A stretch of 64,000 nt of DNA, taken from the NCBI GenBank assembly GCA_964501355.1, contig CAZCSM010000008.1, forward strand, positions 761 to 64,760, in the 5' to 3' direction. The position numbers were made by a program. Origin of the DNA: an uncultured Candidatus Saccharibacteria bacterium (lineage in GTDB: Bacteria > Patescibacteriota > Dojkabacteria > CAZCSM01). Below are positions 33,001 to 39,000 of this stretch, piece by piece. Position 1 is the stretch's first letter; the number at the start of each line of letters is the position of its first letter.

Positions 33001-36000
33001 CTACCAAATTGGGATTCCGATAAAGCTTTTATCTGGATCACTTTTAGTGATGAGTTAGCGATGCAAAGTAAGGAGAAATTCTTCAAATATTTTGAAAACA
33101 CCCTTGAAAATGAATTATTAACCGTTCAGGACATTGATTCCAGAGGGATTCTTTTGAAAAACGACATCTTATTCATAAATTGGCAAAAAGTTGTTTCAAA
33201 AAGTGCAGAAAATAGAGTCCTAAGGAGACCAGAAGATGAATTAATGCAAAAAGAAAGTGGAAAATATTTTGAAGATATGATAGATGCGACTCACGAAGCC
33301 AAGAGAGAAATTATTCTCATAGTTGATGAGTCGCATAAAAATAGTAGAACAAATTTAGCACAAGAAATAATTGATTATATTAATCCGAAAGCTATAGTTA
33401 AGGTATCGGCAACACCAGAAGAGGAACCTTCTTTTTCTCAAGTTAAGAACAATGAGGCAGGATATATTGAAGTACCAAGACAGAAAGTTGTTGAGGAGGG
33501 TTTAATTAAGGAAAAGATTGTTGTTCAAACAGATGAAGATTTACAGAAGTTCAAAGGACAGGATTTAGACGAAGTACTTATTGATTTAGCGATTAGTAAG
33601 AGATTTGAAATTATCGATCAATATAAAAAGTTAAATAAAGAAATCAATCCACTTATCCTGATCCAACTACCTAATGATGATAAAAAGCTAATTGAAATCG
33701 GACAAAAAACTAAAGAACAGGTTGTTTTAGAAACGCTCAACAAAAAAGGGATTAAAGAAGATCGTGTTGCAATGTGGTTTGATGGAAAACAGAAAAACAT
33801 GGAATTTATTACTGAGAATGATAGCGATGTAGATTTTATGCTCTTTAAACAAGCCGCAGGAACAGGTTGGGACTGTCCGAGAGCACACATTTTAGTTATG
33901 TTTAGAGAAATTACTTCTCCTACATTTTATACTCAAACAATTGGAAGAATACTAAGGATGCCTGATCCTGAAAACAACGAGGATTACAAGGACTATTCTG
34001 ATCTAAGAACTGGATATCTATATACAAACTATAAGAGAACTGAGGTTACTATTCCAGATCAATCAACATTTAATAAGCCACTCATTTATATCGCTAAAAG
34101 GAAGAAAAATATCAAGAATGTTGAAATTCAATCTGCTTTTGTTACAAGGGTTGATTATGGGGACTTGAGCAATTCATCAAAGTTTCAGATGAGTTTTCTT
34201 GGTTCGATGAATAATTATTTTGGAATCACTAATGACGATATTTTAGGGAAAGCGAAGGATAAGTTACAGCAAAAAGGTATTGAATTAAACCCAATACTTA
34301 CAAATAAGATCATAGTCAATGCTGAATTTACAGATTTTGACCAAATTAACCTTGAATTTGCTAATGCAGGTGAAGATGTTGACCTTGAAATGTCTCATCA
34401 AGACGTAGAAAAAACATTCAACTATCTATGCTTTGAAATTTTGAAGGAGCAAACAGAGAAAGACGCCAAAATAACTAATATTGCAAGGTCTTGGAGTCCA
34501 TTGAAATCAGCAATAAGGGTTTGGTTTAAAGGTATTTTTAATGAGGATAGCTCATACTACTACAAAGTATTTATTTACGATGTATTAAAGCGTGAAAGTA
34601 GTGTTTTTAAACAGGCAATTACTCAAGCATTAAAGGAGTATCGTCCTATACTTCAAGAGTTATTAAAGGAAAAGATAGCCAAGGTAGAAAAAGATGAAAC
34701 CCCAGTTTTTTCTATTCAAGAGGAATATGCTTATACAGAAGACTACGAGGAATTGGAACAAAGGCTTTGCGTATTGGACAAGTACTATATCAGAAAGGAT
34801 TATGACGGTAGAGAGAATGAAGAAAAGTTTATGAAATACCTCGATACGAAAATGGATTATCTTGAATGGTGGTTTAAGAATGGAGACAGCGGAAAAGACT
34901 ATTTCGCAGTAAAATATTTTAATACCTCTAAACAAGAAGATGCGTTGTTTTATCCAGATTGGATAGTTAGGTTTAAAGATGGCAGAATCGGAATATTTGA
35001 TACCAAAGCAGGAAGAACGGCTACCGATACAGAAGGGCGAGCTGAGTCACTATCTAAAAAATTGAAGGAGCTTGGTAAAGACTATATTGGTGGCATAGCA
35101 ATATTTGAGAATGGTACATGGTATTACAACGATAATGAAGATTATAAATATACTGTAGGCAATCTTAATGGTTGGAAGAAGATGGAAGCATTATTTGCAT
35201 GAAAACACTTAAAGTAAACCTTAAAAACTGTTATGGAATATGTGAATTAAATTACGATTTCGATTTTTCCAATAACAGAACATATGTTATCTATGCACCG
35301 AACGGTGTTATGAAAACCTCATTTGCTAAAACTTTTAAAGATTTCAGTTTTAATATTGAATCTAAAGATTTAATATTCCCCGAAAGAATAACAGAAAGAA
35401 TTATCAATGACGAAAATGATATTGAGGTCAATCGAGAGGTAGTTTTTGTAATAGAACCTTACAACGAACAATTTAGCTCTGATAAACTTTCAACTTTACT
35501 TGTAAGCAAGGACTTGAAACGACAATACGATGATGCATACAAGGAGTTGGAGGAAAAGAAAATTGAGTTTGTTAAGAAATTAAAAGCAATTTCTCAAAGT
35601 TCTGATTGTGAGCAAGAGTTTGTATCATCTTTTATGACTCCAGAAACGGATAATTTTTTTGAATTGCTAATCTCGGTCTTATCTCAACTTGATGGGAAGC
35701 AAACAAGATATGAATTTCGTTACAATGACATATTTGATAAGAAAGGTAATGTAAAAAAGTTTTTAGATAAACATCAAAAAGATTTAGATCTCTATGTTAA
35801 TCATTATGAAGAATTAATCTCAAAGTCTAGTTTCTTCAAAAAATCAAATCATACCTTTGGTACATATCAAGCAAATGAGCTATTAAAGTCTATTTCTGAT
35901 AACTCCTTTTTTGAGGCAGGACATTCAATAGAATTAGCAGATAAAGCTAGAATCAACTCTTCAAAGGATTTTGCAACGGTATTACAAGCAGAATTAGATA

Positions 36001-39000
36001 AAGTATTGAACGATGATAAATTAAAAAAGATTTTTGAAAAAGTTGATAAAGCAATTGGGGCAAATGTAGAGCTACGTGCTTTTAAGGACGTTATTGAAAA
36101 GAATAATTTGCTACTTGTTGAGTTAAAAAGTTACGAAATCTTTAAAAAGAATGTTTGGATAGGCTATCTTGATCAAATAAACTCAGATGTAGAAGCATTA
36201 GTTGAGTTCTACAACTCTAAAAAAGAAAAAATAGAAGAGATTATTTCAATTGCTAAGGGTGAAAAAACTGAATGGGAAAAATCAATAGAGGAATTTAACG
36301 AACGATTCAAAGGATTGCCATTCAAGTTAGGTTTAAAAAACAAAGAGGATGTAATACTAAAGACTATTACTCCCTCTGTAGAATTTATTTTTCACGACAG
36401 AGAGGATGAAAAAGTTATTGAAAGAGATGAATTATTAGATGTTTTGAGTCAAGGTGAAAGGAGAGCTTTATATCTATTGAATATTATTTTTGAAATACAA
36501 GCAAGAAGACAATCTGGGCAAGAAACGGTTTTCATAATTGATGATATTGCAGACTCGTTTGATTATAAGAATAAATACGCAATAATCGAATATTTAAATG
36601 ATATTTCAAAGATTGACATCTTTGCTCAGTTAATTTTTACGCATAACTATGATTTTTACAGAAGTGTTTCAGGCAGGATAGTTGGGAATGGAGGAAACCG
36701 TAGAAAATGTAAAATTAGTGTCGTAAAAACGGCAAAAGAAATAAGACTTGTTGAGGAAAAATATCAAAATAATCCATTTGAAACATGGAAGAAGAATTTT
36801 AGCAATGATTCAATGCTTATCGCATCGATACCATTTGTAAGAAACCTTGCTGAATACATAGGTTTAGATTCTGAATGTACAGAATTAACAAAACTATTAC
36901 ATGTAAAGAATGGATCAACTGATATTACTATTTCCAACCTTGAAGATTTAATCAAAAAAGTGCTTCAAGGGAACAATCGCCTGAACTTGCAGAATAATAC
37001 AGATATTGTACTAGATAGGATTTATGCAGTAGCAGAAGAAATAATTAAACAAACAGATGAATTTCTCGAGCTGGAGAATAAAATTGTCCTTTCAATCGCA
37101 ATCAGATTGAAGGTTGAACAGTTTATGATTCAAGAGATAAATGATCAAAGTTTTGTTGACACTCTAACTATTAATCAAACCTATCATTTAATTGCAAAAT
37201 ATAAGGAATTGTATCCTAGCGAAGATGAGAAAATAAATCTATTAGAACAGGTAAATTTAATGACACCAGAAAACATTCATCTGAATAGCTTTATGTATGA
37301 ACCAATTCTTGATTTGGGGGATGAACATCTCAAGGACTTATACAGAAAAGTTAAAGTATTAATATAAACAAAAATGAACAAGTACCGCAATTCAGCAATT
37401 CAAGTATTAAAGGACACAAAGAGACCCTTACATTATAAAGAAATAACAGAACTTGCACTAGAGAAAGGACTACTTGAGACAGACGGTAAGACTCCAGAGG
37501 CTTCTATGAATGCCCAAATTATCATGGATATTAAGAATAAAGGCAAAGCATCAGACTTTATCAAAACAGATACAGCAACATTTGCTCTTAATCCAAATAA
37601 GAAAATACTAACTGACACCAAAGCTATCGAAAAGGACGAAATTGAAGAAGAAAAAATTGTTGTTGAAAGTGGCTTTACTGGTAAGGCAGGCGAACATCTT
37701 GTCTGTTCTCACCTACTGTTTCTAGGATTCAATGCAAGTATCATGAGTGTCGATGTCGGATTGGATATTGTAGCAACTAAAAAAGGGAAAATGTTTGGTA
37801 TTCAGGTTAAAACATCAAACCTAAACTCATTTAAGACTTATGTCTTTGATATCCGTAAGGCTTCATTTGAAAGACATGACTCAGGTAACATCTACTACAT
37901 CTTTGTATTACATGGAGATTCTGAAAATAACTTCTTAATTCTCCCATTTCATGAGGTTGAGAAATTAGTACAACAAAAGATAATTTTAGAAGTTGGGCAT
38001 GGTAAGAGATATAGAGTGAATATCAAATTCAGGGATGACAAAGTTTACTTGGGAAATTTAGATAATGATATGGAATATTACTTAAATAATTGGAAATTGA
38101 TAAAGTAAAATGCAAGAAATAGCTAAAAATCTATTCATCGGAGATATTGGAGATTTTCAATCTTTGGATATCGAAAAGTGGGCTTTAGTCCATGCAACAC
38201 AGACTGTTCATTATAGCCTAATGGGTTGGGATAGAAAGTTTAACAAACCTCCTCGAAATCACCCTAACTACATTAAGTTAGAGCGAGAAAATAGATTTTC
38301 ATTAAATTGGGTTGATGGTGGTGCTCATCTATATAATTGGACAGGTGTAGAAACTTTTGTTGAGATTCTAGATTTTATTGATAAGTGGATTAGTAAGAGA
38401 CCTGTATTAATTCACTGTGATCAGGGACTCTCAAGAAGCCCAACTGTTGGACTCTTATATTTAGCAAAACGTGAGAAAGCAATATCAAACGATACATATC
38501 AAGAAGCATATAATGATTTTATTCGTTTGTATCCTTCATATGCTCCTTCAGGGATTGGGGAATATGTATCTAAAAATTGGGAATTTATTAAATGAAACTA
38601 ATTAATCTAATCAGAAAATATTAATGAAAAAAGTTAAAGTCACAATTCAAGATGAAAATACATTGGTATTGCAGGAAGATGCCAATAAAGGTGACCTCAT
38701 AGATCTTAAATCTTTGCATGAGACAGATATTGACAAAAGTACTATTGCTTCTGTTGTTAAATCAATAAAAATGGATGAATTCAATGCAGAATTAGAAAAA
38801 GCAAAGAGTATTATTAAGCGAGAAAATGAACTGCAACTTCAATTAAAAGAAAAAGAGATTTACGACAAAGCAAATAAAGAACTTATTGCCAAAGAAGAAG
38901 AAATCCGTGAGCTTAAGTCAAGCCTTAGCAATGCAGAGCTTAAAAAGAAAATAGAGATTTCAGAAGCAATTACTTCACTAGAGAAGGAAAGGGACAAACT

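What the first reader, a model, noticed from the sequence alone, without database searches (positions are those of the whole stretch)
35199..38595. ABC-type ATPase + Mrr-like nuclease + Cys-X5-Arg phosphatase triad directly downstream of Type III res
The ATPase has Walker A YAPNGVMKTSF, signature LSQGERRAL and Walker B IIDDIAD, which is the OLD/RecF/SMC-like arrangement seen in many anti-phage systems (Gabija GajA, Septu PtuA, Lamassu LmuB). Six base pairs after it comes a 244-aa protein with an Mrr_N-type wHTH and a PD-(D/E)xK-like core. One base pair after that comes a 161-aa protein with the textbook protein-tyrosine/dual-specificity phosphatase P-loop VLIHCDQGLSRSPT. An HCX5R phosphatase has not been described as a component of a prokaryotic defense system. 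It could act on nucleic-acid ends (like a polynucleotide or RNA 5'-phosphatase) or on a phosphoprotein signal.
Basis: partly seen in the sequence, partly recalled or inferred. Interest (0 to 1): 0.85.

Follow-up and report, generated by a model that had tools for sequence, protein, structure and literature searches.

The report
Restriction operon with swappable accessory genes
The three genes exist as described, but they are not a fixed three-part defence system: they are separate add-on genes at the tail of a Type III restriction-modification operon, and one of them belongs to a conserved phosphatase family often found beside restriction systems and apparently not described in that role.

Summary
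The three ORFs, their motifs and their 6-bp and 1-bp spacings are exact, and res and the ATPase overlap as ATGA.

- The ATPase is PADLOC candidate PDC-S46 (E 1.6e-262). It is a self-contained SMC-like ABC ATPase, found alone on plasmids or inside other R-M operons without the other two genes.
- The 244-aa protein is a HARE-HTH + PD-(D/E)xK fusion. In 80 metagenome loci it is the tail gene of many R-M operons. It has the phosphatase beside it once and an ATPase fragment four genes upstream once.
- In about 26 independent loci the phosphatase follows Type I, IIG or III R-M, OLD, HEPN or other genes. None repeats this ATPase, and the nuclease recurs in one.
- A sister operon (91% nt identity) carries a PNPOx-like gene in place of phosphatase + DUF2130.

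Best reading: a Type III R-M operon on a conjugative element with a tail of interchangeable accessory cassettes. The R-M-linked phosphatase family is the new element, and its substrate is unknown.

The parts
30820..31068 (+). XRE/Cro-type HTH, probable controller (C-protein-like) at the head of the operon. It overlaps the mod start.
   Evidence: HTH_3 E 8.7e-18. PADLOC Control_protein and HTH models match. The same gene heads the operon in L022 and L122.
31058..32827 (+). Type III R-M methyltransferase (mod)
   Evidence: N6_N4_Mtase E 7.5e-30. PADLOC MTase_III E 1.6e-64. DPPY motif seen in the translation.
32830..35202 (+). Type III R-M restriction subunit (res): SF2 helicase plus a C-terminal PD...DxK motif
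   Evidence: ResIII E 1.4e-21. PADLOC REase_III E 1.1e-15. 'YPDW...FDTK' is in the translation.
35199..37367 (+). SMC/Rad50-like ABC ATPase with a helical insert and an acidic all-helical C-terminal domain. It is a member of PADLOC candidate family PDC-S46. Its start overlaps the res stop as ATGA.
   Evidence: PDLC05023 E 1.6e-262, positions 1-721 of 719. AF2 pLDDT 81.6. Foldseek best matches are SMC, condensin and Rad50 heads, LmuB, retron ATPases and AriA. Close homologues pass Pfam AAA_13. The junction was read.
37374..38108 (+). HARE-HTH + PD-(D/E)xK nuclease fusion. This family is a recurrent tail gene of R-M operons.
   Evidence: HARE-HTH E 7e-17 and PDDEXK_5 E 0.0016. E107, D127 and Q144xK146 are invariant. 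Of 73 upstream neighbours, 71 are co-directional, and of 64 scanned many are ResIII, HsdR, Eco57I, HsdS or MTases.
38110..38595 (+). VH1-like dual-specificity (Cys-X5-Arg) phosphatase of a narrow, highly conserved family linked to R-M systems and defence islands
38592..38601 (+). 10-nt 'ATGAAACTAA' at the phosphatase stop codon. It repeats the first 10 nt of the DUF2779 gene and looks like a scar of the DUF2130 insertion.
   Evidence: Direct sequence comparison with 39906-39915, L024 and L122. In L024 the phosphatase stop and the DUF2779 start overlap as ATGA.
38624..39874 (+). DUF2130 protein (coiled coil + PD-(D/E)xK-superfamily domain), another R-M-linked accessory gene. It is absent from this position in L024 and L122.
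   Evidence: DUF2130 E 2.5e-85. Listed in the PD-(D/E)XK superfamily in PMC3424549. It lies directly upstream of the HARE nuclease in 5 of 64 loci and upstream of the ATPase in L108 and L109.
39906..41333 (+). DUF2779 protein: an N-terminal Cas4-like PD-(D/E)xK region plus an RNase H-like domain predicted to be a 3'-5' exonuclease
   Evidence: DUF2779 E 3.1e-40. PADLOC Cas4 E 7.7e-5. PMC3985635 places it in the 3'-5' exonuclease clade and notes the DUF83 fusion. It is adjacent to the phosphatase in L015, L023, L024 and L120.

Best explanation
Window 30820-41333 is one co-directional, tightly packed operon carried as cargo of a conjugative element. It starts with an XRE controller and an intact Type III restriction-modification pair (mod, res). 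Behind these sits a tail of five accessory genes that are mobile independently of one another: the PDC-S46 SMC-like ATPase, the HARE-HTH/PD-(D/E)xK nuclease, the dual-specificity phosphatase, DUF2130 and DUF2779.

Shown: each accessory gene belongs to its own widely transferred family. Each recurs at the tails of, or inside, many different R-M operons (Type I, IIG, III, II) and other defence loci, in changing combinations. The slot between the nuclease and DUF2779 holds different cassettes in sister operons.

Inferred: these genes are second-line or auxiliary functions that back up or assist restriction, in the way PrrC and RloC and other R-M-linked genes are thought to.
- The ATPase acts on its own, as a sensor ATPase with its own C-terminal effector domain.
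- The HARE nuclease is a backup or modification-sensing DNase.
- The phosphatase is a catalytically competent VH1-type enzyme that works without a fixed partner. Its most likely substrate class is phosphoprotein (pSer/pThr/pTyr). The most attractive role is removing phosphates that phage kinases place on DNA-binding defence proteins. This last step is speculation, with roughly 15-20% probability.
For: Operon structure:
- The junctions are overlapping or 1-31 nt apart, with no terminator-like site inside the cluster beyond the number expected by chance.

ATPase:
- It gives a full-length PDC-S46 match.
- It is a solo gene on Acinetobacter, Leptospira and Pantoea plasmids.
- In Syntrophus it lies between hsdS and hsdR.
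- Elsewhere it follows XRE-EcoRI_methylase-GmrSD/HNH, with or without DUF2130.
- None of these loci has the HARE nuclease or the phosphatase.

HARE nuclease:
- Of 73 upstream neighbours, 71 are co-directional, with a median gap of about 5 bp.
- Of 64 scanned, 18 carry ResIII, 9 T1R_D3, 5 Eco57I and 5 DUF2130, and others are HsdS, MTases, AlwI or SduA_C.
- The phosphatase is adjacent in 1 of 80 loci.
- HARE-REase fusions are listed as auxiliary or backup effectors of BREX-type systems in PMC12839542.

Phosphatase:
- Its homologues are 55-70% identical across many phyla.
- Of 20 upstream neighbours, 18 are co-directional.
- Its neighbours are Type IIG R-M (L003, L006, L007), Type III R-M + DUF4145 + OLD (L002), Type I (L118, L119), Type ISP + TerB_N (L120), XhoI/Eco57I/FokI-domain genes (L121), HEPN_LA2681 (L013), PDDEXK_1 (L015) and AAA + S8 protease (L023).

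Cassette swap:
- L122 matches window 30861-38108 at 91% and 39905-41308 at 90%, but carries a 171-aa PNPOx_N gene in place of phosphatase + DUF2130.
- L024 has nuclease-phosphatase-DUF2779 without DUF2130, and the window keeps a 10-nt duplication scar.

Mobile context:
- TraG/VirB4-like, coupling-protein-like and Replic_Relax genes lie upstream.

Phosphatase class:
- The profile's best PDB hit is VHR.
- D69 is invariant, about 34 residues before C103, and the family pI is about 7.

Rationale for the kinase idea:
- The T7 kinase is Ser/Thr/Tyr-specific and promiscuous, prefers DNA-binding proteins and disarms defences (PMC13645617).
Against: - No functional data exist for any of the five accessory genes, so 'defence accessory' rests on guilt by association.
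- The loci are a sample (21 genome, 80 metagenome and a few look-ups), not a census, and many contigs are short. R-M genes were seen within a few genes in only about 45% of phosphatase loci.
- The slot that holds the phosphatase can hold a PNPOx-like gene, and the genes downstream in L022 are metabolic. Part of the tail may therefore be plain cargo.
- Tight coupling, including the ATGA overlap with res, would also fit a co-adapted multi-protein machine in this particular lineage.
- The kinase-reversal role has no direct support. No kinase is encoded nearby, and DUSP-fold enzymes also act on lipids, glucans and nucleotides.
Confidence: 0.62

Rival explanations
1. One reading: ATPase, nuclease and phosphatase form one three-component defence system, with a sensor ATPase, a DNase effector and a phosphatase that acts on nucleic-acid ends or on a signal.
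For: The genes are tightly spaced and co-directional. The same order is kept in L022 at 94% nt identity. ATPase-nuclease adjacency is also kept in L122-L125.
Against: All loci that keep the order are close relatives of one operon lineage. Outside it the three families do not travel together. L122 keeps ATPase + nuclease but lacks the phosphatase. L024 keeps nuclease + phosphatase without the ATPase upstream. PADLOC treats the ATPase as a single-gene candidate.
Confidence: 0.06
2. The phosphatase and DUF2779 form a two-gene nucleic-acid processing module. The phosphatase removes a terminal 3'- or 5'-phosphate from DNA or RNA ends left by a nuclease. This either gives the DUF2779 3'-5' exonuclease an end it can degrade or makes restricted DNA impossible to religate.
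For: The phosphatase is adjacent to DUF2779 in 5 of about 26 independent loci and in three different arrangements. In L023 and L024 the two genes overlap as ATGA. In L015 the DUF2779 copy is only 30% identical. In L120 the two genes converge. The window junction scar shows an ancestral phosphatase-DUF2779 overlap. DUF2779 is predicted to be a 3'-5' exonuclease (PMC3985635). Nucleases lie upstream in several loci (OLD, HEPN, PDDEXK_1).
Against: About 80% of phosphatase loci lack DUF2779. DUF2779 also follows the HARE nuclease without the phosphatase (L030, L031, L066, L122), so the adjacency may only reflect a shared habitat at R-M tails. The fold, P-loop and general acid are those of protein DUSPs, and the polynucleotide phosphatases BVP and PIR1 score much lower. 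The family pI is neutral.
Confidence: 0.15
3. The phosphatase is passenger cargo with no role in defence, for example a signalling or metabolic phosphatase that hitch-hikes in the variable tail of mobile operons.
For: The same slot holds a PNPOx-like gene in L122. L022 continues into aldo-keto reductase, aldehyde dehydrogenase and isochorismatase genes. About half of the phosphatase loci show no recognisable defence gene nearby. One distant fusion is to a glycosyltransferase.
Against: R-M or other defence genes lie within a few genes in about 12 of 26 loci of very different lineages and R-M types, often with 3-6 bp gaps or overlaps to the upstream defence gene. This is far more than my rough estimate of chance, which I did not compute. 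The 55-70% identity across phyla points to strong selection on a mobile function.
Confidence: 0.15
4. The phosphatase is an anti-defence or establishment factor of the conjugative element, acting on recipient-cell proteins.
For: The cluster sits on a conjugative element near DUF2958. L023 has ArdA and Replic_Relax a few genes upstream.
Against: The gene is embedded inside R-M operons, including between the controller and hsdM in L118. It is transcribed with restriction genes rather than with leading-region genes, and it is rare on viral contigs (1 distant hit).
Confidence: 0.03

Closest known systems
R-M-linked second-line genes (PrrC in the EcoprrI locus; RloC and the 'rlo' genes of Campylobacter hsd loci; the 'multi-pronged defence' and auxiliary or backup effectors described by Aravind/Koonin-type genomics)
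   Same: The accessory genes are embedded in or appended to R-M operons of several types. An ABC/SMC-type ATPase with its own C-terminal domain sits next to restriction genes, and in Syntrophus it lies between hsdS and hsdR exactly where prrC sits (PMC2610378 and PMC3710099).
   Different: The ATPase has no CxxC zinc hook (0 of 28) and no Rx4-6H HEPN motif, and its C-terminal domain is acidic. It has only a loose R636-x3-E640-x53-H694 resemblance to the RloC triad. A Cys-phosphatase has not been listed among such linked genes in the papers I could search.
PADLOC phage-defence candidate PDC-S46
   Same: The window ATPase matches the model end to end (E 1.6e-262) and, like a single-gene candidate, often stands alone.
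   Different: I found nothing published on its mechanism. Here it is translationally coupled to a Type III res gene.
HARE-HTH-restriction endonuclease fusions (Aravind and Iyer 2012; cited in PMC11037411 and PMC12839542)
   Same: An N-terminal HARE-HTH is followed by a PD-(D/E)xK core, in an R-M operon context.
   Different: This is a very narrow, about 245-aa subfamily with 80% mean column identity. Its nuclease motif carries Q in place of the usual acidic residue (QxK). Its DNA-modification specificity is unknown.
VH1-like / atypical dual-specificity protein phosphatases (VHR/DUSP3, DUSP12, MKPs)
   Different: It is bacterial, about 161 aa and stand-alone. It has a conserved insert at residues 28-55 (HATQTxHY...GWxRxxNKPxxxHPNYI) that is absent from the eukaryotic enzymes. 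It is encoded in R-M and defence neighbourhoods, and its substrate is unknown.
Cysteine-phosphatase-fold RNA 5'-phosphatases (baculovirus BVP, PIR1/DUSP11, Mce1 triphosphatase domain)
   Same: They share the same superfold and a Cys-X5-Arg loop.

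Membership tests
PDC-S46 (PADLOC candidate, single gene) | Full-length match to model PDLC05023 | tested here: met
   E 1.6e-262, 871 bits, residues 1-721 on model positions 1-718 of 719.
PDC-S46 (PADLOC candidate, single gene) | Functions or occurs as a single gene without fixed partners | tested here: met
   It is solo on three plasmids and has varied neighbours elsewhere. 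Anti-phage activity itself cannot be tested here.
RloC/PrrC anticodon nucleases (ABC ATPase + HEPN) | ABC ATPase motifs (Walker A, signature, Walker B/D-loop, H-loop) | tested here: met
   Motifs are in the sequence and invariant in 28 homologues. The head has an SMC/Rad50-like fold.
RloC/PrrC anticodon nucleases (ABC ATPase + HEPN) | Pfam AAA_13 (PF13166) membership | tested here: inconclusive
   The window protein gives no AAA_13 hit even at E 10. Homologues of 57-59% identity score 39-40 bits against a cut-off of 36, and only over model positions 319-616 of 713, so the C-terminal domain is not covered.
RloC/PrrC anticodon nucleases (ABC ATPase + HEPN) | CxxC zinc hook in the coiled-coil insert (RloC) | tested here: not met
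   No C..C in any of 28 family members. The feature is defined in PMC2610378.
RloC/PrrC anticodon nucleases (ABC ATPase + HEPN) | C-terminal Arg-X3-Glu-X36-52-His catalytic triad / HEPN Rx4-6H | tested here: inconclusive
   R636, E640 and H694 are invariant, but the spacing is X53, no Ser precedes the His, no Rx4-6H is seen, and the domain pI is 4.8. No profile or structure of PrrC or RloC was available for comparison.
Gabija GajA / Septu PtuA / Lamassu LmuB | Match to the family models and presence of the cognate partner (GajB, PtuB, LmuA) | tested here: not met
   PADLOC returned only PDC-S46 and a weak mad8 hit for the ATPase, and no partner models matched the neighbours. Structural similarity to LmuB, AriA and retron ATPases is at the generic ABC-head level.
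VH1-like dual-specificity phosphatases (Pfam DSPc, PF00782) | HCX5R(S/T) P-loop with catalytic Cys and Arg | tested here: met
   HCDQGLSRS is present, and C103 and R109 are invariant in 35 sequences.
VH1-like dual-specificity phosphatases (Pfam DSPc, PF00782) | General-acid Asp on the loop preceding the P-loop | tested here: met
   D69 in the invariant LNWVDG is 34 residues before C103. Its role as general acid is inferred from position.
VH1-like dual-specificity phosphatases (Pfam DSPc, PF00782) | DSP fold and family score | tested here: met
VH1-like dual-specificity phosphatases (Pfam DSPc, PF00782) | Phosphoprotein phosphatase activity | not testable with these tools
   This needs an enzyme assay.
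RNA 5'-tri/diphosphatases of the Cys-phosphatase fold (BVP, PIR1, Mce1) | Closest structural and sequence neighbours are BVP, PIR1 and Mce1, and there is no general-acid Asp | tested here: not met
HARE-HTH-REase fusion proteins | N-terminal HARE-HTH domain | tested here: met
   PF05066 E 7e-17, 62 bits against a cut-off of 25.9.
HARE-HTH-REase fusion proteins | C-terminal PD-(D/E)xK nuclease core | tested here: inconclusive
   PDDEXK_5 scores 18.9 bits, below the 26.1 cut-off. E107, D127 and Q144-x-K146 are invariant. There are no PDB sequence relatives and no structure model was made.
Mrr (Mrr_N + Mrr_cat) | Match to Mrr_N and Mrr_cat | tested here: not met
   Neither domain was reported at E <= 0.01 in Pfam.
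Type III restriction-modification | Mod methyltransferase plus Res helicase-nuclease in one operon | tested here: met
   The DPPY and PD...DxK motifs are visible.

The most novel reading that the evidence does not exclude
The 161-aa enzyme represents a family of dual-specificity protein phosphatases carried at R-M and defence loci as a partner-independent 'counter-counter-defence'. It would strip the Ser/Thr/Tyr phosphates that promiscuous phage kinases (T7 Gp0.7-like, JSS1_004-like) put on DNA-binding defence proteins, and so keep restriction enzymes and neighbouring systems active. This would be the first protein phosphatase shown to act in anti-phage immunity and the first host answer to kinase-based anti-defence.
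Probability: 0.15. Interest if true: 0.85.

Novelty: new variant of a known kind. Interest (0 to 1): 0.45.

Why it matters
The proposed three-gene system should not enter catalogues as a unit. Two things are worth keeping. First, this is a clear example of how R-M operons collect interchangeable tail cassettes, with a documented swap and an insertion scar. That matters for anyone who infers 'systems' from adjacency in a single genome. Second, a narrow, highly conserved, horizontally spread family of Cys-X5-Arg phosphatases is repeatedly wired into Type I, IIG and III R-M operons. No phosphatase of this fold is linked to phage defence in the literature I could search. Phage kinases have recently been shown to disarm defences by mass phosphorylation, so a defence-linked dual-specificity phosphatase gives a directly testable hypothesis for a host counter-move.

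Tried and rejected
- Triad linkage. I tested it from all three sides: the phosphatase in GTDB genomes, the nuclease in metagenomes, and the ATPase by contig look-ups and plasmids. Rejected.
- Gabija, Septu or Lamassu membership of the ATPase. No model match.
- RloC or PrrC identity of the ATPase. It has no zinc hook and no HEPN motif, AAA_13 is only borderline in homologues, and no PDB relative was found by sequence. Left as a resemblance only.
- Mrr identity of the nuclease. Replaced by HARE-HTH.
- Domain fusions of distant phosphatase homologues as functional clues. The partners are mostly unannotated, with one glycosyltransferase. Uninformative.
- Phage origin. One distant phosphatase hit and five nuclease hits in IMG/VR, so these are not mainly phage genes.
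- Plasmid collection search for the phosphatase. One partial hit only.
- Literature searches for PDC-S46 and for DSP or PTP phosphatases in defence. Nothing found. The HARE-HTH paper itself (PMC3272235) was not held.
- Promoter and terminator scans. Not above shuffled expectation.
- Rfam scan. Only three tRNAs far upstream.

Full report
**Observation**

- The ATPase runs 35199-37367 (722 aa from the ATG).
- The 244-aa ORF runs 37374-38108.
- The 161-aa ORF runs 38110-38595.

All four quoted motifs are in the translations. Reading the junctions shows that the res stop and the ATPase start overlap as ATGA. The next gaps are 6 nt and 1 nt, and 28 nt separate the phosphatase from the following gene.

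Upstream lie an XRE-type HTH (30820-31068), a Type III mod (31058-32827) and a res (32830-35202). Downstream lie a DUF2130 gene (38624-39874) and a DUF2779 gene (39906-41333). No terminator-like site above chance lies inside this run. Window 30820-41333 therefore reads as one operon.

**What each protein is**

*The ATPase.* It matches PADLOC model PDC-S46 from end to end (E 1.6e-262). PDC-S46 is a single-gene phage-defence candidate.
- Pfam sees only a sub-threshold SMC_N match for the window protein.
- Homologues of 57-59% identity pass the AAA_13 threshold over the middle of that model.
- An AlphaFold model (pLDDT 81.6) has an SMC/Rad50-type head, a long helical insert and an all-helical C-terminal domain.
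- Foldseek finds SMC, condensin and Rad50 heads, and at lower rank LmuB, retron ATPases and AriA.
- The family has more than 6600 members.
- It has no CxxC zinc hook (0 of 28), and its C-terminal domain is acidic (pI 4.8).
- R636-x3-E640 and H694 are invariant. They loosely recall the RloC and PrrC triad R-x3-E-x36-52-H (PMC2610378). The spacing is one residue out of range, no Rx4-6H HEPN motif is seen, and I could not obtain a PrrC or RloC profile or structure to compare. I therefore leave this as a resemblance, not a membership.

*The 244-aa protein.* It is a HARE-HTH (E 7e-17), not Mrr_N, fused to a PD-(D/E)xK-like core. PDDEXK_5 is sub-threshold, but E107, D127 and Q144-x-K146 are invariant. 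Its family has 748 clusters and is unusually conserved, with 80% mean column identity across candidate-phylum bacteria.

*The 161-aa protein.* It scores exactly at the DSPc cut-off.
- It has 173 close homologues, 55-70% identical, in Phycisphaerae, Elusimicrobia, Clostridia, WOR-3, Saccharibacteria and others.
- C103, R109 and D69 are invariant.

The phosphatase model is very confident (pLDDT 96.6, pTM 0.92).
- Foldseek against PDB gives human DUSP12, DUSP7 and MKP5.
- A profile of the family against all PDB sequences hits VHR/DUSP3 best (E 1e-8) and only protein DUSPs.
- The P-loop HCDQGLSRSPT is VHR-like, a general-acid Asp is present, and the family pI is about 7.

The fold is therefore a real dual-specificity phosphatase fold of the protein-DUSP type, not the RNA 5'-phosphatase type.

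**The linkage test**

*From the phosphatase side.* I examined 21 GTDB genome loci and further contig look-ups.
- The ATPase is upstream only in L022, a 94% nt copy of this same operon.
- The HARE nuclease is adjacent only there and in one other lineage (L024).
- Otherwise the upstream genes are:
  - Type IIG Eco57I-like R-M enzymes (L003, L006, L007);
  - Type III res + DUF4145 + an OLD-family nuclease (L002);
  - an SMC_N protein that matches PADLOC Ppl (L001);
  - HEPN_LA2681 (L013);
  - PDDEXK_1 (L015);
  - a GNAT (L008);
  - AAA + S8 protease (L023);
  - a Type ISP enzyme + TerB_N (L120);
  - XhoI/Eco57I/FokI-domain genes (L121).
- In L118 the phosphatase sits between the XRE controller and hsdM of a Type I operon.
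- Of 20 upstream neighbours, 18 are co-directional, many with gaps of 3-6 bp or overlaps.

*From the nuclease side.* I examined 80 metagenome loci.
- Of 73 upstream neighbours, 71 are co-directional, with a median gap of about 5 bp.
- Of 64 scanned, 18 carry ResIII, 9 T1R_D3, 5 Eco57I and 5 DUF2130. Others are HsdS, methyltransferases, AlwI or Shedu SduA_C.
- The phosphatase follows it in one locus. That locus is the same contig as L024.
- An ATPase fragment lies four genes away in one locus.

*From the ATPase side.*
- In Syntrophus aciditrophicus it lies between hsdS and hsdR.
- It follows XRE-EcoRI_methylase-GmrSD/HNH, with or without DUF2130, in three loci.
- It is next to an MvaI/BcnI R-M in one locus.
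- It is a solo gene on three plasmids.
- It never has the nuclease or the phosphatase beside it.

**Direct evidence of cassette exchange**

L122 is a 1.1-Mb contig of GCA_036746275.1. It aligns to window 30861-38108 at 91% identity, ending exactly at the nuclease stop codon. It aligns again to 39905-41308 (DUF2779) at 90%. Between these, it carries a 171-aa PNPOx_N gene instead of phosphatase + DUF2130.

L024 has nuclease-phosphatase-DUF2779 contiguous (74-75% nt) with no DUF2130, and there the phosphatase stop and the DUF2779 start overlap as ATGA.

In the window, the 10 nt at the phosphatase stop (ATGAAACTAA, 38592-38601) repeat the first 10 nt of DUF2779 (39906-39915). DUF2130 therefore looks like a later insertion into a phosphatase-DUF2779 junction. 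The slot between the nuclease and DUF2779 exists in at least three states.

**Context**

Window 7956-25105 encodes conjugation functions:
- a DUF11 surface protein;
- a TraG/VirB4-like ATPase;
- an M23 peptidase;
- a coupling-protein-like ATPase;
- a Replic_Relax relaxase.

Three tRNA genes lie at 3603-4009, and a DUF2958 gene at 29454-29747 precedes the operon. Other phosphatase loci also sit next to relaxase and ArdA genes, T4SS fragments or a serine recombinase. The operon is cargo of a mobile element.

**Best explanation**

The operon is a Type III R-M operon with a tail of independently mobile accessory genes. These are drawn from a pool (PDC-S46 ATPase, HARE nuclease, DSP phosphatase, DUF2130, DUF2779 and others) that recurs at R-M operon tails in changing combinations.

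The organisational theme is known:
- PrrC lies in the EcoprrI locus.
- The 'rlo' genes lie in Campylobacter hsd loci.
- R-M-linked HEPN and ABC-HEPN proteins are described as 'multi-pronged defence' (PMC2610378 and PMC3710099).
- HARE-HTH-REase fusions are named among auxiliary or backup effectors (PMC12839542).

What appears new is the phosphatase as a member of that pool. Searches for this fold in a defence context found nothing.

**How the phosphatase might work (inference only)**

It associates with Type I, IIG and III R-M and with unrelated nucleases. It therefore cannot depend on one specific partner, and it must act on something common to these situations.

Its fold, P-loop and general acid point to phosphomonoesters on proteins. 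The T7 kinase was recently shown to phosphorylate Ser, Thr and Tyr promiscuously, to prefer DNA-binding proteins and to disarm several defence systems (PMC13645617). A kinase of phage JSS1 antagonises Dnd (PMC12345140). A dual-specificity phosphatase co-transcribed with restriction enzymes could reverse such modification. I give this about 15%.

The alternatives are these:
- An end-healing role for the neighbouring DUF2779 3'-5' exonuclease. This is supported by adjacency in 5 of about 26 loci. It is weakened by the fold class and by DUF2779 also following the HARE nuclease without the phosphatase.
- Passenger cargo with no defence role.
- An establishment factor of the conjugative element.

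**Limits**

All linkage numbers come from samples capped by the tools, many on short contigs. The background rate of R-M adjacency was estimated, not computed. No model was made for the HARE nuclease. The ATPase C-terminal domain remains unassigned. Nothing here tests function.

**Verdict**

The phosphatase fold and its defence-neighbourhood association are supported. The architecture is ordinary in kind: an R-M operon with accessory cassettes. The one element worth follow-up is the R-M-linked dual-specificity phosphatase family.

Noticed in passing
window 38592-38601 and 39906-39915: The 10 nt at the phosphatase stop codon (ATGAAACTAA) repeat the first 10 nt of the DUF2779 gene (ATGAACCTAA). 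In L024 the two genes overlap as ATGA. DUF2130 (about 38602-39905) therefore looks like an insertion with a short junction duplication.
   Followed up: partly
L122 10736-11248 (GCA_036746275.1, DAIOEL010000001.1): A sister operon at about 91% nt identity has a 171-aa PNPOx_N-family gene in the slot that holds phosphatase + DUF2130 in the window. It also has an extra 791-aa SMC_N protein after DUF2779.
   Followed up: partly
window 37374-38108; alignment A2: The HARE-HTH/PD-(D/E)xK family is extraordinarily conserved for a mobile gene. Mean column identity is 80% and 68 columns are invariant in 32 sequences from several candidate phyla. The nuclease motif has Q in place of the acidic residue (QxK).
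   Followed up: no
window 7956-25105: A conjugative-element gene set: a 1383-aa DUF11/SdrD-like surface protein, a TraG/VirB4-like ATPase, an M23 peptidase, an HTH_36 protein, a coupling-protein-like 864-aa ATPase and a Replic_Relax relaxase. The defence operon is probably cargo of this element.
   Followed up: partly
window 3603-4009: Three tRNA genes in a cluster, next to higher-GC sequence at the window start. This is a possible integration site of the mobile element.
   Followed up: no
L110 7001-9148 (Syntrophus aciditrophicus CP000252.1): The PDC-S46 homologue sits between hsdS and hsdR of a Type I R-M operon, the same position prrC occupies in the EcoprrI locus.
   Followed up: partly
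L118 7691-13983: Here the phosphatase lies at the head of a Type I operon, between the XRE controller and hsdM, and hsdR is followed by a large SMC/AAA_23 protein. A serine recombinase is adjacent.
   Followed up: no
L114 2362-2859 (IMGVR_UViG_3300031670_000026): This is the only viral-contig relative of the phosphatase (35% identity, 165 aa). It lies among ORFs of 480 and 615 aa, sizes typical of phage structural or packaging genes; those ORFs were not annotated.
   Followed up: no
window 41309-43239: Three co-directional ORFs after DUF2779 (226/233, 153 and 264 aa) have no Pfam, NCBIfam or PADLOC match. They are absent from L022, where metabolic genes follow instead.
   Followed up: no
window 27251-28825 (- strand): A 524-aa protein with two ABC ATPase cassettes and no membrane domain (my reading of the translation: ABC-F-like) is encoded convergently just before the DUF2958 gene.
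   Followed up: no
L007 5309-6181 and L010 9120-9995: A roughly 291-aa protein that matches PADLOC candidate PDC-M14A (E 1.9e-14 for the L007 copy) lies directly upstream of the phosphatase in two unrelated loci. A 143-aa protein likewise recurs upstream in L003 and L009.
   Followed up: no
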